A stretch of DNA of 64,000 nucleotides, taken from the sequence record KM657822; one strand, given 5' to 3'. Both the position numbers and the translations under genes were made by a program. The first letter of the stretch is position 1. Every line of letters begins with the position of its first letter. The DNA comes from Escherichia phage vB_EcoM-VpaE1. Below are positions 3,660-30,320 of this stretch, piece after piece. The notes beneath the pieces are model-generated. The model saw only the letters and a program-made list of their open reading frames with translations. It searched no databases and was not told the origin of the DNA.

Positions 3660-4208
3660 ATGAAGAAATTGATTCTAGGTTTGTGCTTAATGCTTACAGC
3701 ACACTTATCTTATGCAGTTGACTGCCCAGAGCTATCAATTAGCCAAAAAGTAAACATGTTAAAAGCTTACCAGTATGGTGAGAATAACATGGGTAAAGGT
3801 TGGGGTATAACTCTAGCTGCTATAGCCTTACAAGAGTCAGAGTTAGGTCTGAAGGTAGAGAATAAAAAGACACATGATTATGGTATTTTCCAGAATCACT
3901 TGAAGACTGTTGTAAAGCGTAACAAAATTAGTCCTAATGTGGCTAAAAAGAAACTCTTAAAAGACTTTGACTATGCTGCAAAGGAAACGCACAAAGAGCT
4001 TGAGTTTTGGACAAAGGTACATGGTCAGCCAAAGTCAAAGAAGACTTTACAAAAAGTTTTAGCATCATATAATGCTGGGTATTCGTACAGAATCCCTAAA
4101 GCTAAGAAGTATTCTCAAGATGTCTATAACAACATGAAAGTTATCGCTCAATGTGAATTTGCAACAAACATTTCTAAGGTAAATCATGAAAAAATTAAGA
4201 AAGTCTGA
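3660..4208 (+). CDS. secreted protein, lytic transglycosylase (SLT)-like
   Basis: N-terminal signal peptide MKKLILGLCLMLTAHLSYA; AIALQESELG...YGIFQ resembles the SLT catalytic-Glu region. Confidence 0.4.
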   Translation: MKKLILGLCLMLTAHLSYAVDCPELSISQKVNMLKAYQYGENNMGKGWGITLAAIALQESELGLKVENKKTHDYGIFQNHLKTVVKRNKISPNVAKKKLLKDFDYAAKETHKELEFWTKVHGQPKSKKTLQKVLASYNAGYSYRIPKAKKYSQDVYNNMKVIAQCEFATNISKVNHEKIKKV

Positions 4209-4881
4209 TGAAGTACTGTGTCACGCTTATGACTTACATCCTTATGAGTTAGGTCTTGATTCCTGTGTATGGACTCCAGAACAGTGTAGGGATTTTGAAG
4301 ACACCGCAAGAGAAGTTGTATGTTCACTCGAAGAGTTCCACACATCAGAGCCAATTGTGAATGTTGTAGATAAAGAGACTGGACAAACTATAGGCGTGAG
4401 TCGTGATAGCTTAGTCATAGTCAATAAAGACCTTGTAGAAAAAGGGAATCTCATCTTAGCAGATATTGATGGTGTTCTTACAAATTTTAATCACGAAGAT
4501 TGCTCAACGGAATTGACTGACGGTTCATTCTCGCAGTATACCAATCTTCTTGATTCTGTAAGAGCAAAGCCGACGTATGTTTTCAATATCATTGATGCAA
4601 TTGCTAATCATGCTGCTGTTGGACTCTTGACAGCGAGAGGTGAATCTCAGAGAATACCTACTGAGATGTTTTTAAGGCATAACACAGAGCATGACTACAT
4701 GCTTTTTATGCGTGGTTTTGGGACTAACTCTATAAGTGCAGAAAGTTTGAAAGTGAGGATGATTCAGTCTTGCATTCTGCCTTACTTTAATATAGTATGT
4801 TTTATAGAAGACACAGAGAAGAATGTGCAGAAGGTGAACAGAATCCTTCCACACATTAAAACCATGTTAGTTAAACATTGA
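4186..4881 (+). CDS. hypothetical protein (possible HAD-like phosphatase)
   Basis: ORF with DIDGVL motif resembling HAD motif I; otherwise unrecognised. Confidence 0.3.
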   Translation: MKKLRKSDEVLCHAYDLHPYELGLDSCVWTPEQCRDFEDTAREVVCSLEEFHTSEPIVNVVDKETGQTIGVSRDSLVIVNKDLVEKGNLILADIDGVLTNFNHEDCSTELTDGSFSQYTNLLDSVRAKPTYVFNIIDAIANHAAVGLLTARGESQRIPTEMFLRHNTEHDYMLFMRGFGTNSISAESLKVRMIQSCILPYFNIVCFIEDTEKNVQKVNRILPHIKTMLVKH

Positions 4882-6812: not shown

Positions 6813-7014
6813 AAAGACACGGAAAATTATCCGGTCAGCAGTATCCATTGGAAGAAATGAAGTGATTCCTTTTACAGCAAATGATGTGATAATCTACAGG
6901 AAAAAATTAGCATTCAGTTATTGCTTACGTGGCTTTATCTCCCAGCCATTGGAAGACTTTAAAAGTCGTTGTGGTAAAGGTATCATCATTCAAGAGGCAA
7001 TTATCAATGGCTGA
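6787..7014 (+). CDS. hypothetical protein
   Basis: ORF in series. Confidence 0.35.
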   Translation: MKVILARDKKTRKIIRSAVSIGRNEVIPFTANDVIIYRKKLAFSYCLRGFISQPLEDFKSRCGKGIIIQEAIING

Positions 7015-7207
7015 CTTCTGCAAAGACTGTTCTATCGAAATGTTCGGACGTGATACAGGTGACTTAAAAGGTCTCATCACTGAAGATGACTTTAAAGCTG
7101 GTTATGCAATGCCAGTAATCTGTGAAGGATGTGGGTGTATCTGGGTAGACCACGAAGGGCAACGTGTAAAACCTTCTGAAGACAAAGAATCTTGGGAGAG
7201 ATGTTAA
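7006..7207 (+). CDS. small zinc-ribbon protein
   Basis: CxxC...CxxC pattern (FCKDCS ... CEGCGC); start taken at internal ATG 7006. Confidence 0.4.
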
Positions 7208-7208
7208 G

Positions 7209-7994
7209 ATGGGTATTGTAAAAATCATCAATGGTGATATCTTTGCTGCATTTGATAAAGGTAAGTTTGACATCATTGGTCACGGTTGTAATTGTATGAA
7301 TTTAATGGGTGCAGGTATCGCTGACAAGATTTCTAAACTTTACCCAAAAGCATATGAGACCGATACAGAAGTTTACCTATATGCAGGTGGCATAGGTCAC
7401 AAACCCTGTGAAAATTTACTGGGTAATTTCTCTGTAGCACGTTTAGAACAAGGCCGTATAGCTAACCTTTACACTCAGCTTAAGACTGGTAAAGATGCCC
7501 GATACAGTGCTTTAGAGTCATCTTTGAAGCAGCTTAACAGATACTGTGAAGTCAACCAGTTGAAGAAGGTTGGTTTACCTATGATTGGTGCAGGTATCGG
7601 TGGGCTAGACCCTCAAGCCGTCACAGTTATCATTAATCAGGTGATGAAGAGTGTAGATGTGTATCTTTATGTCTACGAAGGAGAGATGTACCACAAGTTA
7701 CGCTCAGGTTGGAAGAACTACTGTGAACCAGAATACTTTGCAGGTGTAGCAGTGTTCACAGATAACGCAGTTACCCTCTTCAGACGAAGAAAAGGTAAGA
7801 TACATCAAAGTAACCCTCCGGTTGAAAAGATGTCTCTAAGTAACGCTCTAGTTACCCACCTGTCGAAGAGCAATCACAGGATTGCAGTAACATTTGGCAG
7901 TGATGCAGATGCTTACATCTATGCAAGAACTGATGAGGATATCGAGACAGTTTTCTCTTCACCAGAAGTTACCTTCTTAGACGCAAAGAACTAA
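7209..7994 (+). CDS. macrodomain protein, TARG1/OARD1 (DarG-like) type, with C-terminal extension
   Basis: GDIFAAFDKGKFDIIGHGCNCMNLMGAGIA and LPMIGAGIGGL match the recalled OARD1/TARG1 blocks GDLFAC...HCISEDCRMGAGIA and MPRIGCGL. Confidence 0.75.
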   Translation: MGIVKIINGDIFAAFDKGKFDIIGHGCNCMNLMGAGIADKISKLYPKAYETDTEVYLYAGGIGHKPCENLLGNFSVARLEQGRIANLYTQLKTGKDARYSALESSLKQLNRYCEVNQLKKVGLPMIGAGIGGLDPQAVTVIINQVMKSVDVYLYVYEGEMYHKLRSGWKNYCEPEYFAGVAVFTDNAVTLFRRRKGKIHQSNPPVEKMSLSNALVTHLSKSNHRIAVTFGSDADAYIYARTDEDIETVFSSPEVTFLDAKN

Positions 7995-8413
7995 GAAACT
8001 CCGTAGAATATTCACAATAGTCTAAGCCTTCCTTATCTGGTAAATTTTTCAGGTAAGGAGGGCTTTTTCATTTCAGATTTGTGCAGGTAGAGTTCTGTAG
8101 AGAAATCTGTAGAGAGAATTTTAAACTCCAAAGAGAAAATTCATTTTCAAACTGTGTAGGTAATCTCCAAAGAGCTTTTTCATTTTCAAAACGTGCAGAG
8201 AAAAATCAGGTCGGGCAAGAAAAATCATTTTAGAATTGTGCAGGTAGGTGGGGATGTCGCCATTTCTCACAAGGCTACCACATCTAAAAAGAAAAGTCAA
8301 CAGAAAAATTTGTAGCGGATTGAAAAATAATTCTTGATTGTAGTTCTGTTTTGTGGTAGTCGCGTGCGCCCGTTTCATTACAGTTTTTTGCAAAAATATT
8401 TTTAAAATCCCTA

Positions 8414-8442
8414 TTGACTCTCTGACTATGGTTATTTAATAT
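8414..8442 (+). promoter_or_regulatory. sigma70-like promoter
   Basis: TTGACT - 17 nt - TAATAT. Confidence 0.6.
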
Positions 8443-8503
8443 TTGCATCAACAGGGGGGCGATGACCTCCCAACTAACTAACCTTAAACTAGGAGATTCA
8501 AAA

Positions 8504-8884
8504 ATGGCTTATCGTGCACCTAAATTCATCAATAAAGACAACTTCCGCAACGCACTGGAGAAGACACTTGATGAAAAATTTAACAGCAAATTGATTGTTG
8601 TTCACGCATATAATTTTAAGTATGATATTAACGGGAACAGAATCAACCATTACACGGCAACAATGTTAGATGGCACACTTTCAAGTGAAAAAGCCATTAT
8701 CAATGCACTTGCAGGACGTGGGAAAAACCTGATAAAATGCGATAAGAGACGTTATCAGGGTGGCGCATATGGCTATGATGATGCTGTTTATCATCTTGAA
8801 AATATGGGCTATTCAGTGGAAAAAGCTGGAGTGTCTCAAATAATCGGCAGTGACGGCTATGTGACAATTTTCAAAATTAACTGA
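8504..8884 (+). CDS. hypothetical early protein
   Basis: ATG preceded by conserved taggagattc RBS cassette. Confidence 0.55.
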   Translation: MAYRAPKFINKDNFRNALEKTLDEKFNSKLIVVHAYNFKYDINGNRINHYTATMLDGTLSSEKAIINALAGRGKNLIKCDKRRYQGGAYGYDDAVYHLENMGYSVEKAGVSQIIGSDGYVTIFKIN

Positions 8885-8972
8885 TAAAGTACTTTACAAG
8901 GGGCTTATAGTTCGATAAAGTAAGCCCCAGATAAAGAGCTTTACCACTAAATCCTAAATTGGAGATTCCAAA

Positions 8973-9230
8973 ATGGCTATTATCAAAAACGTTGTAATTC
9001 ATGCAAAAACTCGTGATGACGCTCGCATCATGGCGAAAAAGTTAGGCGGGAAAGTGATTGACAACGGGAAAAAATCTGCTGTAAGATGGGGCGTACAGGT
9101 TGATAAACGTTTAATCTTAAAACGTAGTTCAAACAACCTTTTTAAAGGTGTAAAATCACTCGGTAAAGTGAACGTCTTTACCAAAAAAGGCTATAAAATG
9201 CACTTATCATTGACTGGCAATTTAATCTGA
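8973..9230 (+). CDS. hypothetical early protein
   Basis: ORF preceded by conserved hairpin+RBS cassette. Confidence 0.55.
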   Translation: MAIIKNVVIHAKTRDDARIMAKKLGGKVIDNGKKSAVRWGVQVDKRLILKRSSNNLFKGVKSLGKVNVFTKKGYKMHLSLTGNLI

Positions 9231-9320
9231 TAAAGTACTTTACAAGGGGCTTAAAAGTTGTTACCTTAAGCCCCAGATAAAGAGCTTTACCACATTAACC
9301 TTAAACTAGGAGATTCTAAA

Positions 9321-9617
9321 ATGAAATTATCAAATAAAGTTAGGGAAAATCTAAGCAAGTTACTCAACAAAATTGATTTTATCGAGACCTCAAGAAATAC
9401 TCATGAGGTTATGGAATGGTTGCACGGGAAAATAAATGGCCGTCGTGTAGTGATTTGCTTATGGAATAGTTGCAGGGAGTATAAAAAACCTGTATTACAA
9501 ATTAATATTTATGACGATACTTTTAAAAGCCCTGTTAAATCTAAAAGTGACTTATTAGAATCTTATGAGATAACTTTAAATGGCAAGGTATCACGCAAAG
9601 AGGTAACACCATGTTAA
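9321..9617 (+). CDS. hypothetical early protein
   Basis: ORF preceded by conserved cassette. Confidence 0.55.
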   Translation: MKLSNKVRENLSKLLNKIDFIETSRNTHEVMEWLHGKINGRRVVICLWNSCREYKKPVLQINIYDDTFKSPVKSKSDLLESYEITLNGKVSRKEVTPC

Positions 9618-9943
9618 TGATGGGGACAACTGCAATCATCGCCATTATAGCACTTTATAAGGCTTACAGCGCCTACAATCTGGCAAGTAAGGCAATTACG
9701 CAACAGGTTAATAATAGCCTTGTAATGAGTTTTCTGGAGCGTTTAAGTGATGAACAAATAAAACGGTTAGAAATGAGCTTCAGATTTCAATCAAAAACTT
9801 ATCAAATCAGCGACATTTTCAAAGATAATTTTCAGCTTGTCGATGATTATAACTCCCTGATAAATGCTTTAAATATCAGTGACTTAAAAGACTATTACAC
9901 TGTAATTGTCCAAGAACTGAACAAACGAAAAAATTTCTCTTGA
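9611..9943 (+). CDS. hypothetical membrane protein
   Basis: ORF with N-terminal hydrophobic segment; start overlaps previous stop. Confidence 0.45.
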   Translation: MLMMGTTAIIAIIALYKAYSAYNLASKAITQQVNNSLVMSFLERLSDEQIKRLEMSFRFQSKTYQISDIFKDNFQLVDDYNSLINALNISDLKDYYTVIVQELNKRKNFS

Positions 9944-10033
9944 TTTTAGTTTTAAAAACAAGTAAATTACTAATCAACGGGGAGGGAATGACCTTCCCCA
10001 CTAAATAAAGTCCTTAAACTAGGAGACTCGAAA

Positions 10034-10306
10034 ATGTATACTACTAACAACGGTCGTACTCTAAACGTAACTTTACGGCACTATGTAGACGGTGTAATGC
10101 ACTTTGAGGATTTACGGGCTGAACAGCACATTTTGGATTGGCAACTTGCAGGATTCCAAAAAACTGTTACAGGATACGGTAAAAAGATTCCAACCAGTTG
10201 GAAGGTACACTATGAAGGACGTTTGCGCAGAATTTATCAGGATGTATGTAGCAATAGTGCATCGAGTTACATCATAGTAAAAGGTAAAAAACTGCATTTA
10301 GTGTAA
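10034..10306 (+). CDS. hypothetical early protein
   Basis: ORF preceded by conserved cassette. Confidence 0.55.
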   Translation: MYTTNNGRTLNVTLRHYVDGVMHFEDLRAEQHILDWQLAGFQKTVTGYGKKIPTSWKVHYEGRLRRIYQDVCSNSASSYIIVKGKKLHLV

Positions 10307-10392
10307 AGTACTTTACAAGGGGCTTATAGTTCGATAAAGTAAGCCCCAGATAAAGAGCTTTACCCCTAAATCCTAAATTGGAGAACTTAAAA

Positions 10393-10797
10393 ATGGCTAT
10401 TAATAACCGTGAGTTATCAATCTTAAAAGCACGTTTGACCGTTAACCGGATTAATGTTATCACGTCATCAGCGCCTGATGAGACATTGCACAACATTATC
10501 GGGAAGATTCAAAGCGTTATCTTAGACGTTGAAAACGTAAAAAAATCATTGGCTGACGTTGCAGCAGGTATCACGCTAGACGGTGCACAATACGAAATGG
10601 CTGACATGTTGGGCAAATCTAAGGTAATGAATAAAGAGCTTGATTTAAAAATGTTCAGATTCGCTGTGAAAGTATGGCTATCCGTCGAGTATGATGCTAA
10701 TTATGCAATCGCTGACTTTTTCGCCACTTGGTTGCAGCGTAATTTGACAAATCACGATTTTCGTAATATCTGCGATGCAATCTATGCAGAACTTTAA
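10393..10797 (+). CDS. hypothetical early protein
   Basis: Start moved to ATG 10393 directly after conserved RBS. Confidence 0.55.
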   Translation: MAINNRELSILKARLTVNRINVITSSAPDETLHNIIGKIQSVILDVENVKKSLADVAAGITLDGAQYEMADMLGKSKVMNKELDLKMFRFAVKVWLSVEYDANYAIADFFATWLQRNLTNHDFRNICDAIYAEL

Positions 10798-10896
10798 AAA
10801 ATTTTCTTGACACTGGTTTTTATGTAGGTTAAATTACACATCAACGGGGGGCGATAACCTCCCCACTAAATAAAACCCTAAACTGGAGATTCTAAA

Positions 10897-11100
10897 ATGG
10901 CTATTATTAACGGTTTAAACATTGAAACTACACACATCAAAGATATTAAAGTTGGTGATGCAGTCCTCTTTCACGGCGTAGAAAAAACCGTCACGGCGAA
11001 AGACATTACAGAGGATTCATTCATGGGTCGGTCGCTCTTCGGTGATTCCTATTGCTTAGGTTACCGTGCGGTTTTAAAAGTTGTCAAAAATAATAAATAA
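10897..11100 (+). CDS. hypothetical early protein
   Basis: ORF preceded by conserved cassette. Confidence 0.5.
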   Translation: MAIINGLNIETTHIKDIKVGDAVLFHGVEKTVTAKDITEDSFMGRSLFGDSYCLGYRAVLKVVKNNK

Positions 11101-11185
11101 AGTACTTTACAAGGGGCTTAAAAGTTGTTACCTTAAGCCCCAGATAAAGAGCTTTACCACTAAATCCTAAACTGGAGATTCAAAA

Positions 11186-11728
11186 ATGAAATGCTTTCAC
11201 GGTACTACCCAAGAAAACTTCCTCAACCTGATTAATAACGGTGATAAGCCATCAGGTGCATGGAATTGTTCGGACATGGACGGCAATTTTTACGTGTATC
11301 CAGAAAATAAAATCTACGGCGACGATGAGGAAGAGATAATCTCTGAAGGCATACAGCAAGCGTTAGGCAATGCCACTATTACAGCCGCTTTCCAGATGAA
11401 AACCCAAAATATTGTTATCTTGGAACTTGATATCCCAGAGGATGACCTGAATGATGATTATTCTTGTGATAATATGTCTGGCGTAGCAAGTTTTACAGAA
11501 TACTTCGATTTAAATTGGATTAAAAAGGTTTATGTAACCGAGTTTAACGCTATGTATTCGCCTTTTTGTCTTCCTTCACTGGATAACCCAAATATGAATT
11601 ATCTTGATGAGACATTAAAACTACTTGCTAAAAGTGTTCAACAATCGGACAGTATTCAGGTTTTTTGTGACATCATGGACACACTAACGGAAAACATCGC
11701 AGAAGAGGATTTGAAGAGCTTTTTCTAA
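11186..11728 (+). CDS. hypothetical early protein
   Basis: ORF preceded by conserved cassette. Confidence 0.55.
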   Translation: MKCFHGTTQENFLNLINNGDKPSGAWNCSDMDGNFYVYPENKIYGDDEEEIISEGIQQALGNATITAAFQMKTQNIVILELDIPEDDLNDDYSCDNMSGVASFTEYFDLNWIKKVYVTEFNAMYSPFCLPSLDNPNMNYLDETLKLLAKSVQQSDSIQVFCDIMDTLTENIAEEDLKSFF

Positions 11729-11794
11729 TAACCTATACAATCACCTTATAAACACTATTCAGCCCCTTGTAGGGGCTTTTAAGAGGCTTAAATC

Positions 11795-12028
11795 ATGCTT
11801 ACAACCGTTTATCTTATCCTTTCTATATGTAATGGTCATTCATGCGATTTTAAAGGGCTTGAAGATTTTACAGGAAGTAAAGAAAATGCTATTCAAGTTT
11901 GCCAGATAGCGAGACAAGACTATCCCGCAAGTGATGATATTCAGTGTTACTTTAAGACAGAAGATGAAGACGGTATCTATTTTGACAGTGTAGATGGTCA
12001 GTATGAAATTATCATTGAAAAAGACTAG
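11795..12028 (+). CDS. hypothetical protein
   Basis: ORF. Confidence 0.4.
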   Translation: MLTTVYLILSICNGHSCDFKGLEDFTGSKENAIQVCQIARQDYPASDDIQCYFKTEDEDGIYFDSVDGQYEIIIEKD

Positions 12029-12117
12029 ACAAGCCTGATAAAAATCTGTAAATTGTCAATCAACGGGGAGGGGATGACCTTCCCCACTAAATAAAATCCT
12101 AAACTGGAGATTCAAAA

Positions 12118-12459
12118 ATGGCTTATGTAACCGTAATTACCGATAAAGCTGGCGCATCTTGGTCAACTCAAGTAAGCGATAAGATGTCACCTATGCAGTG
12201 CCTAAAGTACTTTGAGCAATGGAACAAAGGCGAGGATGTCAGCCCCTTTCAAGTAGTGCAGATTATCCATACAGATAACGAAGGGAAGAAAACTGTTTTG
12301 AATAGTGAGTACTACGCAACCAGATTTGAAACGAGATGTAAAGCAATGAAGCTCTTGCGTGAGTCTGGTTATTCTCATATTGCGGCAATAATCTGGGATG
12401 ACTTGCTAAAAAGTCAGCGTATCAGCTATGTAAAACCTGAAAAAATATTCATCAGTTAA
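12118..12459 (+). CDS. hypothetical early protein
   Basis: ORF preceded by conserved cassette. Confidence 0.55.
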   Translation: MAYVTVITDKAGASWSTQVSDKMSPMQCLKYFEQWNKGEDVSPFQVVQIIHTDNEGKKTVLNSEYYATRFETRCKAMKLLRESGYSHIAAIIWDDLLKSQRISYVKPEKIFIS

Positions 12460-12681
12460 TCAATAACTTACAAAAAACTTTTAAAAAAGTGTTGACAATG
12501 CCCCTTGACATTGGTAACTTTGTTCGAGGGGGTTTATCTAAAAGGGATTAACTTAAAAGATTCTTTATAGATAAACTTAAAAAATTGCTTGCAATCAGAT
12601 ATCAAAACAAGTAAATTACTAATCAACGGGAGGGATAACCTCCCCACTAAGTAAAGTCCTTAAACTAGGAGATTCAAAAAA

Positions 12682-13212
12682 ATGAACAAGTTCAAAGCTA
12701 TCAACTTCATTCGTTCAAATAGTGTTATGTCAAAGCCTGTTAAAGACACCTATGAATTTCGTTGTAATGGTGTACATTTTGCAACAATCACCAAATCAGA
12801 AAACGGGGTTTATTACGTCCATCGTCGTAATGTTTCTACTGTTGTAGTTTCTCACTTTATGCAAGCTGTCGCGGAACTTCTCCCGATGTTTTTAGGTCTT
12901 TACTTAGATGAGTGTAAAAACGTTCACAATCACGTTAAAAACCTTTTAAACAGTTATAAAATGGCTTATGAACGCTCTATCAAGTCCTTAAACAAGTTTT
13001 ACAAAGCACCTGAAAATACTGTGTCAATAGCCTATGGTGTAAGCGGTGAAATGGTAAACTTATCAAATGTGGAAGAAATCAAGCTGCATGATTTACGCCC
13101 TAGCGGTTACTCTAAGACTCTAGGTGAAGGTTTAACGTTCAATATCAAGAACTTAGAGAAAACTTTAAAAGATATTGAAAAAGATATTGACGAGACAATC
13201 AAAAATCTGTAA
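12682..13212 (+). CDS. hypothetical early protein
   Basis: ORF preceded by conserved cassette. Confidence 0.55.
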   Translation: MNKFKAINFIRSNSVMSKPVKDTYEFRCNGVHFATITKSENGVYYVHRRNVSTVVVSHFMQAVAELLPMFLGLYLDECKNVHNHVKNLLNSYKMAYERSIKSLNKFYKAPENTVSIAYGVSGEMVNLSNVEEIKLHDLRPSGYSKTLGEGLTFNIKNLEKTLKDIEKDIDETIKNL

Positions 13213-13280
13213 ATTGTCAATCAACGGGGAGGGGATGACCTTCCCCACTAAATAAAGTTCTTAAACTAGGAGATTCTAAA

Positions 13281-13529
13281 ATGGCAACTATCCGCGCTAC
13301 TGTAAACGCTTATGGCTGTTATACTCTGGACGTTAAATTTGATATTGGTGGGACTGATGAATGTTTTTCCTTAGTGAAGACAGTTATCAAGCAAGTAATC
13401 CCAGATTATAACCCTACTGATGACTTCTGGAAAGATGCCGTAAAAGAGGCCATAAACGATGAGCATCACTATCATTACTGGGGTGATTTGATTGTCTCCC
13501 TGTACTACAATAAACAAGGTTACAACTAA
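13281..13529 (+). CDS. hypothetical early protein
   Basis: ORF preceded by conserved cassette; last gene of the plus-strand block. Confidence 0.55.
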   Translation: MATIRATVNAYGCYTLDVKFDIGGTDECFSLVKTVIKQVIPDYNPTDDFWKDAVKEAINDEHHYHYWGDLIVSLYYNKQGYN

Positions 13530-13589: not shown

Positions 13590-15245
13590 ACGTCTATGTA
13601 ATAGCCTCTATACAACCCCTTTCCTTTCCTTTCCAGAATCTTACTAGACCTTAAAAGCAATAACTCTATAGTCTACTCTATAACCTCTTATCAAATCAAC
13701 TTAAATATAAGCCCATAACCCGAAAGGGAAGGGCAACCATTTAAACGCTCTATAAAGCCCTATAACAGCCTTATCAACCTAACTTAATGGGTTGCATTAA
13801 CTCACCCTTAAAAGCCCTTCCTAGAGCTTCTCAGAGCCTTAAAAGAATCTTATAAGGGTGTAAGCTTTACCATCTCGTTAGTTCCTTGTGAATAACTAAA
13901 AAGGGCTTGTTAGTGTCTTAAAAGTATGTTATAGGGGCTATAAAGTTACTTTGAAGTTGCTTAAAAGTTACGTAAAAGGGGCTATAAAGTTACGTAAATG
14001 CTAGCCCCCTTAACATTTTCTTAACAATTTCTTAACAATCCCTACATAGTTATGCTTTTAAGACACTTGTTAGCAACTTGTTAGCCCCTTGTTAAATCTC
14101 TGTTAAGACCACGTAAAAGCCTTGTAAGAGTCTTTGACATAGCCTTAAAAGCTCCTGTAAAGCTCTATAAAGAGCTATCTGTACAGTTGGGGTGTAACTA
14201 CTAGGAAGAGGCTTAAAAGAGCTTATAAAGAGCTATAGAGAGCTTTTAAGAGGTATGTTTAAGGAATCACTAGGGATTGGTAACAATACCAATTAAGAAA
14301 GGAAGGGAACGATAAGAAAGAGAAGTTGTGTTTGAACCAACCACTGTGACCATGTTAACAGCTTGTTAAAAAGATTAAACACTTGTTAGAAACTTGTTAA
14401 TTATCTTAACAAAATAACTCTTAAAAATTAACTTGTTAGCTCTTGTTAGTCATTTGTTAAGCCTCTGTAAAGACTATTCAGCACTTGTTAGAAAACTGTT
14501 ACAGTCTTGTTAGTTCTGTTAAGAAACTGTTAAGACCTTTGAAGAGTTGTTAAGAGCTTGAGAGAGTTGTTAAGAAATTGTTAAGGATATTTTAAAATTT
14601 TGCAAAGTACTTGTAAGGGAGCTGTTAAGGGCTACCAAGCAGATATACATCATGAGGTAGATTCTACCGAATCAACTCTACAGATATTTTTCAGTTCCTT
14701 CAAAGACCCTAAAAAATGACTTGATAGTCCTATTTTATAAAAATTTTAAAATTCTGAATAATTACCTATACAGCCTTTTAAAAATACAGGTAATAACAGG
14801 CTTATAAGATACCTTGTTAGTACCGTGTTAGACCTTGTGAGATAAGGTCTGTAAAGATATTCCTGTTAAGTTTGTTAAAACAGTCTATATAGAGGCTTAG
14901 TAATACCTAGTGAACACCTATAGAGAGTGTCATAGCTAACATAATGGGTTACTGTTAAGTAACACAGATAACCTAGAGATTAAGAGGTGTATAGGAGCTT
15001 CTAAGAAGGTGTAGAGAGATGGTTAAGGTGATTGTATAGGCTGTTAAGAAGGCTTGTTAGAGGGCTAGTTAGAAGGTTTATACAGAGGGCTATTAAGACC
15101 ACTAGATAGTTACTAAGATACTATATAGTACTATATAACTATATAGAGAGTAAGATTAAGAAGGTTGTTAAGAAGGGTAGATATTTTGTTCACATATGAT
15201 GGTGACCCAGAGGTTGGGACAACCGATAAAATTTTATAAAAATTA
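13590..15245. repeat. ORF-free region with dense same-strand YTGTTAR motif array
   Basis: No ORF of 60 aa or more in the six-frame track; about 28 copies of [CT]TGTTA[AG] all on the plus strand, often 10-11 bp apart; TATAAAG motifs also present. Confidence 0.8.
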
Positions 15246-27894: not shown

Positions 27895-27970
27895 GGGGTC
27901 ATAGTTTATATGGTTAAAATTCGAGTTTTGCAAACTTGGGAACTGAGTTCAATTCTCAGTGACTCCACCA
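27895..27970 (+). tRNA. tRNA-Ala (TGC)
   Basis: Anticodon stem cgagt/acttg, loop ttTGCaa; CCA. Confidence 0.7.
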
Positions 27971-27976
27971 ATTAGT

Positions 27977-28051
27977 GCATCCATAGTTTAAACGGGAAAA
28001 TTACAGTCTTCCAAACTGAGGTTGAGGGTTCGATTCCCTCTGGATGCTCCA
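27977..28051 (+). tRNA. tRNA-Gly (TCC)
   Basis: Anticodon loop ctTCCaa; T-loop GGTTCGATTCC; CCA. Confidence 0.65.
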
Positions 28052-28057
28052 AATAAT

Positions 28058-28134
28058 GCTGCTTTCGTATAATTGGCTATTACACATCCCTTGTAAGGAT
28101 GGAAATGCAGGTTCGAGTCCTGTGAGCAGCACCA
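28058..28134 (+). tRNA. tRNA-Thr (TGT)
   Basis: Anticodon stem catcc/ggatg, loop ctTGTaa; CCA. Confidence 0.7.
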
Positions 28135-28229
28135 ATTCAGAGGTCAAGTGAAAGACCGCTGGTGTCAACTGAAGACCGTAACAAATTCCACGGAGTTGAG
28201 TTAGCGGCACAACTTCAGACCTCTTTCAT

Positions 28230-28304
28230 ACTCGCTTAGTTTATATGGTAAAACATCACCCTTACAAGATGAAGAAAAAGGTTCAAGTCCTTTAGTGAGT
28301 ACCA
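28230..28304 (+). tRNA. tRNA-Val (TAC)
   Basis: Anticodon loop ctTACaa; T-arm aaagg-ttcaagt-ccttt; CCA. Confidence 0.65.
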
Positions 28305-28305
28305 T

Positions 28306-28383
28306 GTTCCAGTATCCCAATTGGCAGAGGATGCAAGCTCAAACCTTGTACTAGTGACGGTTCGAATCCGTCTTGGAACACCA
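28306..28383 (+). tRNA. tRNA with CAA anticodon (Leu by anticodon; short variable arm)
   Basis: Anticodon stem gcaag/cttgt, loop ctCAAac; T-arm gacgg-ttcgaat-ccgtc; CCA. Confidence 0.6.
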
Positions 28384-28402
28384 ATTTTGAGAGGCTATTT
28401 AG

Positions 28403-28960
28403 ATGAGATATTTGAAGTATGCTTCATGGATTTTCCTAGCTTTACTAGAACCATTTGCAGCAACCCTAGCAGTCATCTTAGCACCTTTCGTAGTTCCATT
28501 CTACAGTGAGAAGAAAGGACATCTACCTTTTGGATTCAGATGGATGGAGACCTATGACAACCCAATTGATGGTGATGAAGGCCACGTTAAAAGATGGGCT
28601 AAGATTAGAAAGATTGGTAAGCTGGGTGTCTACATGCAGAGAGTTGGATGGCTCTGGAGAAACAAAGCTTATAACTTCTCTTACCATGTATTAGGAAGAG
28701 ATGTAAAAGATGTTACTAAGTGGAAAGGTAATATCAACGTAAGTTCTAACCCTGAAGATAATCAGACTGGTTATCTCCTAATGTGGAACAGTAATGCTTG
28801 GGGATTATTCGCTTTTATCCCATCAATTAAAGTCTTTGGTAAACAGTTTTACTGGAGAATTTATGTTGGGTGGAAACTTAAAAGTGTTGTCCCAGAAGAA
28901 AGAGCATTCTCAAGGGAAAGAGTTATGTTGGCATTCTTTATTCATCCACTGAGAAAGTAA
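28403..28960 (+). CDS. hypothetical membrane protein encoded inside tRNA cluster
   Basis: 185-aa ORF with N-terminal hydrophobic segment, Trp-rich; no tRNA overlap. Confidence 0.5.
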   Translation: MRYLKYASWIFLALLEPFAATLAVILAPFVVPFYSEKKGHLPFGFRWMETYDNPIDGDEGHVKRWAKIRKIGKLGVYMQRVGWLWRNKAYNFSYHVLGRDVKDVTKWKGNINVSSNPEDNQTGYLLMWNSNAWGLFAFIPSIKVFGKQFYWRIYVGWKLKSVVPEERAFSRERVMLAFFIHPLRK

Positions 28961-28968
28961 AGATTTAA

Positions 28969-29044
28969 AGGGGATTAGTTTACAAGGTTAAAACCTCGGT
29001 CTTTGAAATCGAAGAAGTTGGTTCAATTCCAACATCCCCCGCCA
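28969..29044 (+). tRNA. tRNA-Gln (TTG)
   Basis: Anticodon loop ctTTGaa; unpaired 1-72 (A/C); CCA. Confidence 0.65.
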
Positions 29045-29046
29045 AT

Positions 29047-29125
29047 GCTCCATTACTCCAATTGGCAGAGAGGCCAGACTTAAAATCTGTGTTATGTATC
29101 GGTTCGAATCCGATATGGAGTACCA
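29047..29125 (+). tRNA. tRNA with TAA anticodon (Leu by anticodon; short variable arm)
   Basis: Anticodon loop ctTAAaa; T-arm atcgg-ttcgaat-ccgat; CCA. Confidence 0.6.
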
Positions 29126-29130
29126 AATTT

Positions 29131-29206
29131 AGCGGTATAGCATAACTGGCAATGCAACAGTCTCTGAAGCTGTCCTATTAAGGTTCAAATCCTTATGCCG
29201 CTGCCA
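29131..29206 (+). tRNA. tRNA-Gln (CTG)
   Basis: Anticodon stem acagt/gctgt, loop ctCTGaa; CCA. Confidence 0.65.
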
Positions 29207-29237
29207 CTTCTAAGGGTTCTTACGAGAGTCCTTAAAT

Positions 29238-29313
29238 GTGGCCTTATCATAAATGGTAATGACCCATGCTGTGAACATGGTCTATACGGGTTCAAATCCC
29301 GTAGGTCACCCCA
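29238..29313 (+). tRNA. tRNA-His (GTG)
   Basis: Anticodon stem ccatg/catgg, loop ctGTGaa; CCA. Confidence 0.7.
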
Positions 29314-29318
29314 ATTTA

Positions 29319-29395
29319 TAGTCCAAGTAGCTTATATGGTTAAAGCGCGTGTCTGAAAAACATGAGAAGAGGGTTCAAATCCCACTGGACTACCA
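29319..29395 (+). tRNA. tRNA-Phe (GAA)
   Basis: Anticodon loop ctGAAaa; T-loop GGTTCAAATCC; acceptor register ambiguous by 1-2 nt. Confidence 0.6.
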
Positions 29396-29411
29396 ATTTC
29401 AAAGGTGCTTA

Positions 29412-30146
29412 ATGAAAGAGATGACAGAACAAGGTAAGGAGATTTTTAATCTCTTAAAAACCGGTAAAGGGTTTTCTAACCCACTTATTACTGGTGCAGC
29501 AGTTCTCGGTGGAACCGTAGCTGCCTCTACATCACTTGTAAGCTCTATTAGCTCTGTAACAGACCCTGCAATGAAGGAGAAACTTGTTGCTGCTGGACTT
29601 ACAACAGTCCTTCTAAACAGCTTTACAACAAGCCTTACAAGCACTACAGCAACTACTAAGACCCTAACAGACTACGGTCAAAAGTCTATTGATGAGTTTT
29701 CATCACGTATGCAGGTAGCAAAGGGATATTCCAATGTTATGGGTGCAGCAGGAGAACAGGTTGGTTGTACACCATTCAGTGGTATTATGGGTGTTGCTAC
29801 AGAATATGGTCAAAAAGCTATTGACACAATTAACAGTACACTAGATAGTGTTAATGGTGTGTTAAGTGACTTACAAGATGCTATTGATAAGGGTCTTGAT
29901 ACTGTTTCTGATTTAGCTAACCAAGCTGTTAGTAAGATTAATGAAGGTATCTCAAAGATTACAGCTTATGCAGATGAAGTTGTGCAGATGATTGAAGAAG
30001 AAGCTGCCCTTATTGCAGAGTACCTTAAAACGAATATCAATGGGTTCTTAGCAGGTATCTTACCAGACTGGTTTGACGATGCTTGTAAAACTGGTGTGAT
30101 TGACACTATTGCAACACCAGAAATGAAGAACGCATTACAGAAATAA
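29412..30146 (+). CDS. hypothetical protein (Gly/Ala-rich N-region, helical C-region)
   Basis: Start moved to ATG 29412 after aaaggtg RBS, downstream of tRNA-Phe. Confidence 0.5.
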   Translation: MKEMTEQGKEIFNLLKTGKGFSNPLITGAAVLGGTVAASTSLVSSISSVTDPAMKEKLVAAGLTTVLLNSFTTSLTSTTATTKTLTDYGQKSIDEFSSRMQVAKGYSNVMGAAGEQVGCTPFSGIMGVATEYGQKAIDTINSTLDSVNGVLSDLQDAIDKGLDTVSDLANQAVSKINEGISKITAYADEVVQMIEEEAALIAEYLKTNINGFLAGILPDWFDDACKTGVIDTIATPEMKNALQK

Positions 30147-30147
30147 T

Positions 30148-30240
30148 GGAAGATTAACCCTAAAAGGTAAGGGAGCAGTTTGCTAAACTGCTAGTAGCTG
30201 AGAAATCGGTGTACCAGTTCAAGTCTGGTATCTTCCTCCA
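30148..30240 (+). tRNA. tRNA-Ser (GCT)
   Basis: 93 nt with long variable arm; anticodon stem gcagt/actgc, loop ttGCTaa; CCA; begins 2 nt after upstream stop codon. Confidence 0.7.
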
Positions 30241-30244
30241 ATTT

Positions 30245-30320
30245 GAATCCGTGACAGAAATGGATATGTGCCTGTCTGCAAAACAGGTTTATAAGGGTTC
30301 AAGTCCCTTCGGATTCTCCA
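30245..30320 (+). tRNA. tRNA-Cys (GCA)
   Basis: Anticodon stem cctgt/acagg, loop ctGCAaa; T-arm aaggg-ttcaagt-ccctt; CCA. Confidence 0.7.

What the first reader, a model, noticed from the sequence alone, without database searches (positions are those of the whole stretch)
7209..7994. TARG1/DarG-type macrodomain protein, candidate counter-defence against ADP-ribosylating systems
The N-terminal 150 aa match the TARG1/OARD1 macrodomain, the same type used by the DarG antitoxin to remove ADP-ribose from DNA. A phage copy could reverse ADP-ribosylation by host DarT-like toxins or other ADP-ribosyltransferase defences. The 110-aa C-terminal extension is unassigned.
Basis: partly seen in the sequence, partly recalled or inferred. 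Interest (0 to 1): 0.75.

Follow-up and report, generated by a model that had tools for sequence, protein, structure and literature searches.

The report
Phage enzyme that erases ADP-ribose tags
This Felix O1-type phage gene encodes an ADP-ribose-removing macrodomain related to a T4 protein shown to defeat the bacterial DarTG2 defence, fused to a fast-evolving extra domain of unknown fold, so it is most likely a counter-defence enzyme of a kind described only recently.

Summary
Window 7209-7994 (+) is an intact 261-aa gene in a Felixounavirus genome. Residues 1-157 are a confident macrodomain: Pfam Macro scores above its cutoff, and the AlphaFold model best matches TARG1 and DarG macrodomains.

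One refinement. The catalytic Lys of DarG (K80) and TARG1 (K84) is replaced by an invariant Gln (Q90), while the catalytic Asn (N28) is kept. This Asn/Gln site matches Streptomyces SCO6735, which cleaves thymidine-linked ADP-ribose from DNA and needs that Gln. It also matches T4 Tk.4 (AdfM; 35% identical, E 3e-24), whose knockout sensitises T4 to DarTG2.

The most likely function is removal of DarT2-type ADP-ribose from phage ssDNA. This is inferred and has not been tested in any Felix O1-like phage.

The 104-aa C-terminal part is a real folded β-rich domain. It has no match in Pfam, PDB, viral structures or 1.84 billion protein representatives outside this fusion family. It evolves several-fold faster than the macrodomain. 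It is not the DarT-binding domain of DarG, and no toxin gene is adjacent.

Verdict: a new architectural variant of the recently described phage AdfM counter-defence kind. Interest is moderate.

The parts
7209..7994 (+). Complete gene (261 codons plus stop) for the two-domain macrodomain protein. It is the orthologue of Bas63 gp95 'putative phosphatase' (98% identical).
7209..7679 (+). N-terminal macrodomain (residues 1-157), TARG1/DarG/SCO6735 (ALC1-like) class, T4 Tk.4/AdfM subfamily. Motifs: H25-G-C-N28-C, M33-G-A-G-I-A38, N86-L-Y-T-Q90, P124-x-I-G-A-G-I-G131.
7290..7292 (+). Codon AAT for Asn28. Equivalent to DarG N22, PhiKZ AdfM N23 and SCO6735 N27. Invariant in the family.
   Evidence: PMC13309987; PMC9411070
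7476..7478 (+). Codon CAG for Gln90. Occupies the position of the catalytic Lys of DarG (K80) and TARG1 (K84). Equivalent to the essential SCO6735 Q85. Invariant in the family and in T4 Tk.4 ('NLYTQ').
   Evidence: PMC9411070
7680..7991 (+). C-terminal domain (residues 158-261): a linker helix followed by six β-strands and a short helix. It is an orphan fold found only fused to this macrodomain, and it evolves fast.
7007..7207 (+). 66-aa CxxC...CxxC (zinc-ribbon-like) ORF whose stop lies 1 nt before the macrodomain ATG. Probably co-transcribed and translationally coupled. A functional link is not shown.
   Evidence: annotated as Mushroom gp119; Bas63 gp94
8024..8065 (+). Strong intrinsic-terminator-like hairpin (17 pairs followed by a T run) 30 nt after the stop codon. 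It marks the end of the transcription unit.

Best explanation
The gene encodes an orphan, phage-borne ADP-ribosyl hydrolase of the T4 Tk.4/AdfM type. It has no partner toxin.

Proposed mechanism: when a host DarT2-type toxin ADP-ribosylates thymidines (N3) in single-stranded phage DNA and blocks replication, the N-terminal macrodomain binds the ADP-ribose and hydrolyses the base-ribose bond, restoring replicable DNA. Catalysis would use the SCO6735-type site, not a catalytic lysine. In that site Asn28 locks Gln90, which positions the distal ribose while a backbone-held water acts.

The C-terminal domain is a lineage-specific, rapidly diverging accessory module fixed onto the enzyme. Its role is unknown. 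My best guess is that it recognises a variable partner, such as the toxin or another host or phage protein, rather than taking part in catalysis.

Shown here: the fold, the class, the active-site residues, homology to T4 AdfM, the orphan status, and the conservation and selection pattern. Inferred: catalytic activity, the DNA-thymidine substrate, the anti-DarTG2 role, and any role of the C-terminal domain.
For: - Macrodomain: Pfam above cutoff. The model's best structural matches are TARG1 and DarG macrodomains.
- DarG is the only hit in the defence-protein library PADLOC (E 3.4e-13) and in NCBIfam.
- 35% identity, E 3e-24 to T4 Tk.4 over the whole macrodomain (gene position next to vs confirmed). 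Tk.4 = AdfM, and its knockout sensitises T4 to DarTG2.
- N28 and Q90 are invariant in 19 full-length and 13 macro-only relatives. They align with N27/Q85 of SCO6735. In SCO6735, Q85A is dead and N27S nearly dead on dT-ADPr DNA, and the protein rescues DarT toxicity (PMC9411070).
- TARG1, DarG and SCO6735 were the only hydrolases active on N3-uracil ADPr among the panels tested in PMC13036486, and all three also hydrolyse thymine-linked ADPr.
- Strong purifying selection on the macrodomain (dN/dS 0.01-0.06 within the genus).
- Dispensable in Bas63 on laboratory and defence-system strains that did not include DarTG, as expected of a conditional counter-defence gene.
- Syntenic conservation across Ounavirinae-like phages.
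- The hosts' species (E. coli) carry DarTG1/2 systems used in the cited studies.
Against: - No Felix O1-like phage has been tested against DarTG.
- 35% identity to T4 AdfM does not guarantee the same substrate.
- For T4 AdfM only genetics is published, not enzymology. The biochemically proven phage AdfM (PhiKZ gp104) is the Lys type and only 24% identical to this protein.
- SCO6735 K34, important for its DNA activity, is Ala35 here (though PhiKZ AdfM also has Ala there). The long Lys-bearing mobile loop of SCO6735 is about 5 residues shorter here.
- Profile E-values do not separate DarG from Poa1p, BT1257, SCO6735 or TARG1; all are about 1e-16 to 1e-17.
- One relative (P0026) fuses this macro type to a cyclic-phosphate-processing cREC_REC domain, which hints at small-molecule substrates in some members.
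Confidence: 0.55

Rival explanations
1. The macrodomain acts on small ADP-ribose derivatives rather than on DNA. Candidate substrates are ADP-ribose-1''-phosphate (Poa1p-like 'phosphatase'), O-acetyl-ADP-ribose, or an ADPr-based immune signal or toxic metabolite. Its role would be to detoxify them or silence signalling.
For: - Public annotations are 'phosphatase' or 'O-acetyl-ADP-ribose deacetylase'.
- The profile matches yeast Poa1p as well as it matches DarG.
- The survey of viral NAD/ADPr systems argues that phage macrodomains mainly target low-molecular-weight ADPr derivatives (PMC9503650).
- Relative P0026 is fused to a cyclic-phosphate-processing cREC_REC domain.
- A polynucleotide-kinase gene and NAD-salvage genes lie a few kb upstream in this phage type.
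Against: - Poa1p has Ser, not Gln, at the key position, and aligns only in two pieces.
- No Tpt1/KptA-type enzyme that would produce Appr>p is annotated in the relative's genome.
- The nearest experimentally characterised homologue (T4 Tk.4) has a DarTG2 phenotype.
- In Bas63, gp95 was not a counter to Sir2-HerA or the other NAD-linked systems tested, whereas g79/g80 were.
Confidence: 0.15
2. It reverses ADP-ribosylation of RNA or protein, not DNA, installed by other host toxins. Examples are uracil-N3 ADP-ribosylated RNA or Glu/Asp-linked protein modification.
For: - TARG1, DarG and SCO6735 also hydrolyse uracil-linked ADPr on ssRNA (PMC13036486).
- SCO6735 and TARG1 also de-modify proteins (PMC9411070).
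- The phage invests heavily in RNA functions: 25 tRNAs and a Ro60-like gp130 in Bas63.
Against: - No bacterial anti-phage toxin that makes U-ADPr RNA was found in the papers read here. The known RNA-targeting defence CmdT modifies adenine and was described as irreversible.
- SCO6735 is inactive on 2'-OH and 5'-phosphate ADPr nucleic acids.
- The TARG1 Lys/Asp dyad used for protein substrates is absent.
Confidence: 0.15
3. It neutralises a toxin mainly by binding rather than catalysis, acting as an antitoxin mimic. The hypervariable C-terminal domain and/or the macrodomain would sequester DarT or another ART, as AdfB does and as DarG and SCO6735 partly do.
For: - Catalytically dead SCO6735, DarG and TARG1 still inhibit DarT by interaction.
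- ICP1 AdfB works by direct interaction with DarT.
- The C-terminal domain evolves 3-10 times faster than the macrodomain and is unrecognisable in Kolesnikvirus. That pattern is typical of arms-race interfaces.
- The two-domain layout parallels DarG.
Against: - The active-site residues are invariant and under very strong purifying selection, which argues for catalysis.
- The C-terminal domain has no sequence or fold similarity to the DarG C-terminal domain.
- No interaction could be tested here.
Confidence: 0.08
4. It regulates the phage's own ADP-ribosyltransferase activity by erasing self-inflicted marks, as might be imagined for T4 with Alt/ModA/ModB.
For: T4, which has a homologous macrodomain, encodes three ARTs (general knowledge; mentioned in PMC9503650).
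Against: No ART is annotated in a complete Felixounavirus genome. None of the neighbouring ORFs hits an ART or defence profile.
Confidence: 0.03

Closest known systems
T4 Tk.4 = AdfM (anti-DarT factor Macrodomain; bioRxiv 10.1101/2025.11.20.689424)
   Same: Phage-encoded orphan macrodomain. 35% identity over the whole domain (E 3e-24). Same HGCNC / MG[AS]G[IV]A / NLYTQ / IGAGIG motifs, including Gln at the DarG-Lys position. Non-essential accessory gene.
   Different: Tk.4 is a 155-aa stand-alone macrodomain, whereas this protein carries an extra 104-aa C-terminal domain. It comes from a different phage family (Straboviridae rather than Ounavirinae). The anti-DarTG2 phenotype is shown for Tk.4 only.
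PhiKZ gp104 = AdfM (PMC13309987)
   Same: Phage orphan macrodomain of the DarG-like class. The catalytic Asn is conserved. It has proven hydrolysis of DarT2-made ADPr on DNA.
   Different: Only 24% identical (E 3e-4). It keeps the DarG-type catalytic Lys (K78) where this protein has Gln. It is single-domain and is imported into the phage nucleus.
Streptomyces coelicolor SCO6735 (PDB 5e3b; PMC9411070)
   Same: Same Asn/Gln active-site configuration (N27/Q85 against N28/Q90). Orphan TARG1-like macrodomain that cleaves dT-ADPr DNA and protects from DarT.
   Different: It is bacterial and DNA-damage-induced. It has a mobile loop 5 residues longer with Lys89/Lys94, and Lys34 where this protein has Ala35. 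It has no C-terminal domain. Single-sequence similarity is weak (E 0.35; profile E 5.7e-17).
DarG antitoxin of DarTG2 (T. aquaticus 5m31/5m3e, M. tuberculosis 5m3i)
   Same: Macrodomain of the same class. Two-domain layout with the macrodomain at the N terminus.
   Different: The catalytic Lys80 is replaced by Gln. The C-terminal domain is unrelated. There is no adjacent darT. The protein scores far below the NCBIfam equivalog cutoff (48 against 250 bits).
Human TARG1/OARD1 (4j5r)
   Same: Best single-sequence and structural match. Same class.
   Different: The Lys84/Asp125 catalytic dyad is absent (Q90 and G131 here).

Membership tests
Macro domain superfamily (Pfam PF01661) | Profile score above the curated gathering threshold | tested here: met
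   32.1 bits against a cutoff of 22, residues 25-141 covering profile positions 2-117 of 118
Macro domain superfamily (Pfam PF01661) | Three-layer alpha/beta/alpha macro fold | tested here: met
   AF2 model pLDDT 84.8. 216 PDB hits with E<=1e-3 and the 50 best listed are macrodomains or macrodomain-scaffold designs, led by TARG1 and DarG. Target TM 0.77-0.81
TARG1-like / ALC1-like macrodomain class | Closest relatives among solved structures are TARG1, DarG, SCO6735, BT1257 and Poa1p rather than MacroD or PARG types | tested here: met
TARG1 (OARD1) | Catalytic dyad Lys84 / Asp125 | tested here: not met
   K84 aligns with Q90 and D125 aligns with G131 (alignment)
DarG antitoxin (NCBIfam NF048014 equivalog) | Full-length score at or above the curated cutoff | tested here: not met
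   48.1 bits against a cutoff of 250. Only profile positions 4-154 of 338 are matched. PADLOC DarG matches positions 18-146 of 329
DarG antitoxin (NCBIfam NF048014 equivalog) | Catalytic Lys80 (T. aquaticus numbering) | tested here: not met
   'NFPTK' of DarG aligns with 'NLYTQ'. Q90 is invariant
DarG antitoxin (NCBIfam NF048014 equivalog) | Catalytic Asn22 | tested here: met
   N28 is invariant and lies 6 residues before the G-x-G loop (PMC13309987)
DarG antitoxin (NCBIfam NF048014 equivalog) | C-terminal DarT-binding domain | tested here: not met
DarG antitoxin (NCBIfam NF048014 equivalog) | Encoded next to a darT toxin gene | tested here: not met
   Neighbouring ORFs are small, with no PADLOC hit and no relevant Pfam hit (only a sub-threshold SLT match on the 3660-4208 ORF). 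Annotations of relatives show no ART
Phage AdfM, T4 Tk.4 type | Sequence homology to T4 Tk.4 across the macrodomain, with shared signature motifs | tested here: met
   35% identity, E 3e-24. Motifs
Phage AdfM, T4 Tk.4 type | Phage-encoded, orphan, dispensable without the defence system | tested here: met
   Felixounavirus genome. Bas63 gp95 (98% identical) has positive fitness scores, meaning nonessential
Phage AdfM, T4 Tk.4 type | Protects the phage from DarTG2 | not testable with these tools
   No published test of a Felix O1-like phage was found. This needs plaque assays.
Phage AdfM, T4 Tk.4 type | Removes ADP-ribose from DarT2-modified thymidine in ssDNA | not testable with these tools
   Biochemistry exists only for PhiKZ AdfM, DarG, TARG1 and SCO6735
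SCO6735-type (Gln) active site | Asn27 and Gln85 equivalents present | tested here: met
   N28 and Q90 align with N27 and Q85 (residue roles from PMC9411070)
SCO6735-type (Gln) active site | Extended Lys-bearing mobile loop and Lys34 for DNA binding | tested here: not met
   The loop after Q90 is about 5 residues shorter (Q90...R98 against Q85...R98 in SCO6735). Ala35 replaces Lys34. Lysines K92 and K95 are present in the short loop
Poa1p-like ADP-ribose-1''-phosphate phosphatase | Specific similarity to Poa1p and a source of Appr1p (Tpt1/KptA pathway) | tested here: inconclusive
   Poa1p profile E 4.4e-17, but the match is split and has Ser at the Gln position. No KptA is annotated in relatives. 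Enzyme activity was not testable.

The most novel reading that the evidence does not exclude
The hypervariable, orphan-fold C-terminal domain is a specificity module that binds the DarT2 toxin or another variable host factor. On this reading, Ounavirinae convergently built a two-mode antitoxin mimic: an enzymatic eraser plus a toxin or target binder, analogous to but unrelated to the DarG C-terminal domain. The rapid turnover of the domain (unrecognisable between Felixounavirus and Kolesnikvirus) would then track the diversity of host toxins.
Probability: 0.15. Interest if true: 0.65.

Novelty: new variant of a known kind. Interest (0 to 1): 0.45.

Why it matters
Felix O1-type phages are widely used for Salmonella and E. 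coli diagnostics, biocontrol and therapy, so knowing which defences they can disarm helps predict host range. If confirmed, this gene would extend the AdfM anti-DarTG2 counter-defence, described only in 2025-2026, to a third major phage group. It would also support the view that the Gln-type active site seen in SCO6735 is the common phage solution. About 2,800 of 50,697 phage records carry a Tk.4-like macrodomain. Finally, the gene offers a natural two-domain variant whose fast-evolving extra domain could show how such erasers are targeted or how they track toxin diversity.

Tried and rejected
**C-terminal domain identity.**
- There were no usable hits in Pfam (only a sub-threshold NAC hit, E 0.13), and in PHROGs only its own family 335.
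- BFVD returned only the SUSP2 orthologue.
- An exhaustive hmmsearch against 1.84 billion representatives found only the same fusion family or fragments of it. The remaining hits (P0033, P0034, P0037-P0039) are PQQ/β-propeller or repeat proteins and were rejected as spurious blade-like similarity.
- The afdb50 fold library was unavailable.

**C-terminal domain as a general nucleic-acid binder.** Not supported: net charge and pI vary from 4.75 to 9.66 across homologues.

**A conserved partner gene.** A zinc-ribbon-like ORF precedes the gene in Felixounavirus, and a different one does so in one distant relative (L004). Another relative (L005) has none, so a conserved two-gene module was not established.

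**An adjacent toxin (true TA system).** Rejected.

**Literature searches.**
- A search for 'AdfM' was swamped by a journal DOI prefix.
- No paper links DarTG with Bas63 or Felixounavirus.
- A guessed BASEL accession was the wrong phage. The correct accession, MZ501086, came from the PhageMaP methods.
- One search was an empty placeholder script.

**Kolesnikvirus C-terminus against the Felix-type C-domain profile.** No similarity (hhalign probability 0.1%).

Full report
**1. Observation**

The window is a Felix O1-like myovirus genome (Felixounavirus, Ounavirinae). The 2-kb region around the gene is 92-94% identical to about 200 Escherichia, Salmonella and Shigella phage records. The protein is found at 90-100% identity in about 200 records and at 60-80% in another 43.

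Public records call the gene 'phosphatase', 'putative phosphatase', 'O-acetyl-ADP-ribose deacetylase' or 'hypothetical protein'. It belongs to PHROG 335 'phosphatase' (E 2e-113).

**2. The N-terminal domain is a macrodomain of the TARG1/DarG class**

- Pfam Macro (PF01661) matches residues 25-141 over almost its whole length, at 32.1 bits against a gathering cutoff of 22.
- DarG is the only hit in NCBIfam and in PADLOC.
- By sequence, the best solved relatives are human TARG1 (E 1e-5) and T. aquaticus DarG.
- A profile of 13 family members matches BT1257, yeast Poa1p, SCO6735, M. tuberculosis DarG and TARG1 about equally well, at E about 1e-16 to 1e-17.
- An AlphaFold2 model built from 19 homologues is confident (pLDDT 84.8, pTM 0.85). 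Its best PDB matches are TARG1 (E 1.5e-9, target TM 0.81) and the DarG macrodomain (E 1.7e-8, TM 0.77).

**3. Active site**

The other refutation test, 'catalytic residues absent', needs care.

- *What is missing.* In the alignments, the catalytic lysine of DarG (K80, 'NFPTK') and TARG1 (K84) aligns with Gln90 ('NLYTQ'). TARG1 Asp125 aligns with Gly131.
- *What is kept.* The catalytic Asn (DarG N22; PhiKZ AdfM N23) is conserved as Asn28.
- *Conservation.* N28 and Q90 are invariant in all 19 full-length relatives and all 13 macro-only relatives, including T4 Tk.4.
- *Why this site is likely active.* This is the configuration of Streptomyces SCO6735 (N27/Q85; aligned). That enzyme removes thymidine-linked ADP-ribose from ssDNA, rescues cells from DarT, loses all activity with Q85A, and loses nearly all activity with N27S. 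The published mechanism has Asn locking Gln, which positions the distal ribose while a backbone-held water acts (PMC9411070).

The protein therefore lacks the TARG1 and DarG lysine chemistry but has a validated alternative. Two differences from SCO6735 remain: Ala35 in place of the DNA-contacting Lys34 (the active PhiKZ enzyme also has Ala there), and a loop after the Gln that is about 5 residues shorter.

**4. Closest functional precedent**

- The T4 hit lies between vs and tk.3/tk.2, so it is tk.4. Its product is 35% identical to our macrodomain (E 3e-24).
- A 2025 preprint found tk.4 as the single T4 gene needed on DarTG2-expressing hosts. A clean knockout confirmed this, and the gene was named adfM.
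- Independently, PhiKZ gp104 was also named AdfM. It was shown in vitro to remove DarT2-made ADP-ribose from DNA and to protect chimalliviruses (PMC13309987). That protein is the Lys type and only 24% identical to ours.
- In the hydrolase panels of PMC13036486, TARG1, DarG and SCO6735 were the only enzymes active on N3-uracil ADPr, and all three also reverse thymine-linked ADPr. SCO6735 is inactive on 2'-OH-linked and 5'-phosphate-linked ADPr.

The most economical reading is that the Felix O1-type protein is an AdfM-like eraser of DarT2-type DNA ADP-ribosylation.

**5. It is an orphan, not a DarG**

- It scores 48 bits against the NCBIfam DarG equivalog cutoff of 250, and only the macro half of the DarG profiles is matched.
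- The neighbouring ORFs are small and have no hit to defence profiles or ART families.
- No ART is annotated in complete relatives.
- The gene is the last of a + strand block that follows rIIA, rIIB, an SLT-domain protein, a polynucleotide-kinase-like gene and the spanins. A strong terminator-like hairpin sits at 8024-8065.
- A 66-aa CxxC...CxxC ORF (7007-7207) ends 1 nt before the start codon. It is annotated in phages Mushroom and Bas63. It is not consistently present next to distant homologues.

**6. The C-terminal domain**

*It is a real folded domain.* Residues 158-261 are predicted as a linker helix plus a six-stranded β-rich domain with one short helix. This holds in the full-length model and when modelled alone (pLDDT 79, pTM 0.72).

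*It has no detectable relatives outside this fusion family.*
- Pfam: nothing.
- PHROGs: only its own family.
- Viral predicted structures: only the SUSP2 orthologue.
- Exhaustive profile search of 1.84 billion representatives: only members or fragments of the same macro fusion. The remaining hits are β-propeller or repeat proteins, which I regard as spurious.

*It evolves much faster than the macrodomain.*

| Comparison with the window protein | Macrodomain identity | C-terminal domain identity |
|---|---|---|
| Suspvirus/Mooglevirus-type homologues | 76-81% | 46-53% |
| Distant syntenic homologues | 40-54% | 13-19% |

| dN/dS | Macrodomain | C-terminal domain |
|---|---|---|
| Within the genus | 0.01-0.06 | 0.11-0.56 |
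| Against Mooglevirus | 0.13-0.16 | 0.45-0.60 |

- In the Erwinia Kolesnikvirus orthologue, which has the same 260-aa length and the same synteny, the C-terminal 100 aa are no longer recognisably related.
- Its charge is not consistently basic, which argues against a generic DNA-binding tail.

The domain is thus selected, since the ORF is always intact and dN/dS is below 1, but it is diversifying. Its function is unknown. Binding to a variable partner is my leading guess, with low confidence.

**7. Supporting context**

- Bas63 gp95 is 98% identical to our protein.
- In the PhageMaP knockout screen it has positive fitness scores, meaning nonessential, on laboratory strains and on strains carrying defence systems. 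It was not called a counter for any of them.
- DarTG is not mentioned anywhere in that paper, so the relevant test has not been done.
- The same screen showed that Bas63 g79/g80 (Prs and NadV, which lie just upstream of rIIA and just outside our window) counter Sir2-HerA. This phage type therefore carries other NAD-related counter-defences.

**8. Rivals**

- *Small-molecule ADPr processing* (Poa1p-like phosphatase, OAADPr deacetylase, signal degradation). This is the traditional annotation and is argued for phage macrodomains in general. One relative fused to a cREC_REC domain fits it. But there is no source of Appr1p in the genome, and the closest tested homologue has a DarTG2 phenotype.
- *Reversal of RNA or protein ADP-ribosylation.* Biochemically possible for this class, but no matching host toxin turned up in the papers read here.
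- *Neutralisation mainly by binding.* Conceivable, but the invariant active site argues for catalysis.
- *Regulation of a phage ART.* Unlikely, because no ART is annotated.

**9. Novelty and verdict**

The kind is a phage orphan macrodomain that undoes DarT2 modification. It has been known since 2025-2026, for T4 and PhiKZ. This protein is a homologue in a third phage lineage. It has the Gln-type site and an additional, lineage-specific orphan domain making up 40% of its length.

I rate it a new variant of a known kind, of moderate interest. Confidence by level of claim:
- Macrodomain fold and class: high.
- Catalytic competence: good.
- The specific anti-DarTG2 role: moderate (about 0.55).
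- Any role of the C-terminal domain: low.

**Caveats**

- The structure models rest on shallow alignments (16-19 sequences).
- The dN/dS values come from few substitutions per pair.
- The T4 AdfM evidence is a preprint with genetics only.

Noticed in passing
window 7007-7207 (+): A 66-aa ORF with two CxxC pairs (zinc-ribbon-like) ends 1 nt before the macrodomain start codon. It is left unannotated in SLAM_phiST56 but annotated in Mushroom (gp119) and Bas63 (gp94). It has no Pfam or PADLOC hit. A different CxxC...CxxC ORF sits in the same place in the distant relative L004, but not in L005.
   Followed up: partly
window 8000-8460: A ~460-nt region without a convincing gene lies right after the macrodomain gene. 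It contains a strong terminator-like hairpin (8024-8065), three tandem 38-45-nt repeat units (8122-8243) and a related 28-nt motif at 8059, 8171 and 8366. It may be a cluster of regulatory sites.
   Followed up: no
window 8467-13286: Nine copies of a 43-nt cassette (a 'CCCCACTAAATAAA' or 'TTTACCACTAAAT' stretch followed by 'CCTAAACTGGAGATTC-AAAATG'), some extended to 90-108 nt with a GGGGAGGG/CCTTCCCC hairpin. Each ends in the ATG of a small gene. This looks like a repeated terminator/RBS (possibly promoter) unit organising a run of small genes of unknown function.
   Followed up: partly
window 14353-14594: A dense array of TGTTA-containing short repeats ('TGTTAAGAAACTGTTAAG...') with 7 overlapping copies. 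It resembles an iteron or protein-binding array.
   Followed up: no
window 25483-30320 (+): A cluster of 25 tRNA genes, typical of Felixounavirus. In relatives it is preceded by a Ro60-like/vWFA 'RNA-binding protein' (Bas63 gp130, reported as a counter to defence systems).
   Followed up: no
window 3660-4208 and 4186-4881 (+): An SLT-domain protein (Pfam E 9.5e-4, below the cutoff) and an ORF annotated as polynucleotide kinase in Bas63 lie 2.3-3.5 kb upstream. T4 also has an SLT-domain gene (vs.1) two genes from its macrodomain gene tk.4, and distant relatives L004 and L008 keep SLT/PNK upstream. This may be shared ancient synteny.
   Followed up: partly
L008 (Erwinia phage vEam_PM_27) 4998-5780: The Kolesnikvirus orthologue has the same 260-aa length and the same position. 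Its C-terminal ~100 aa show no similarity to the Felix-type C-domain profile, and His25 of the HGCNC motif is Gln there.
   Followed up: partly
protein P0026 (339 aa, metagenomic): A Tk.4-type macrodomain with the NLYTQ motif is fused to a cREC_REC 'cyclic-phosphate processing receiver' domain (Pfam E 4.7e-7). This different accessory domain on the same enzyme type hints at small-molecule ADPr substrates in some members.
   Followed up: no
relatives: L007 23863-26572 (PP948675.1), L014 12747-15455 (Bas63 g79/g80); just upstream of window position 1: Ribose-phosphate diphosphokinase and nicotinamide phosphoribosyltransferase (NAD+ reconstitution; shown to counter Sir2-HerA in Bas63) lie immediately before rIIA, about 8 kb upstream of the macrodomain gene and just outside this window.
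   Followed up: partly
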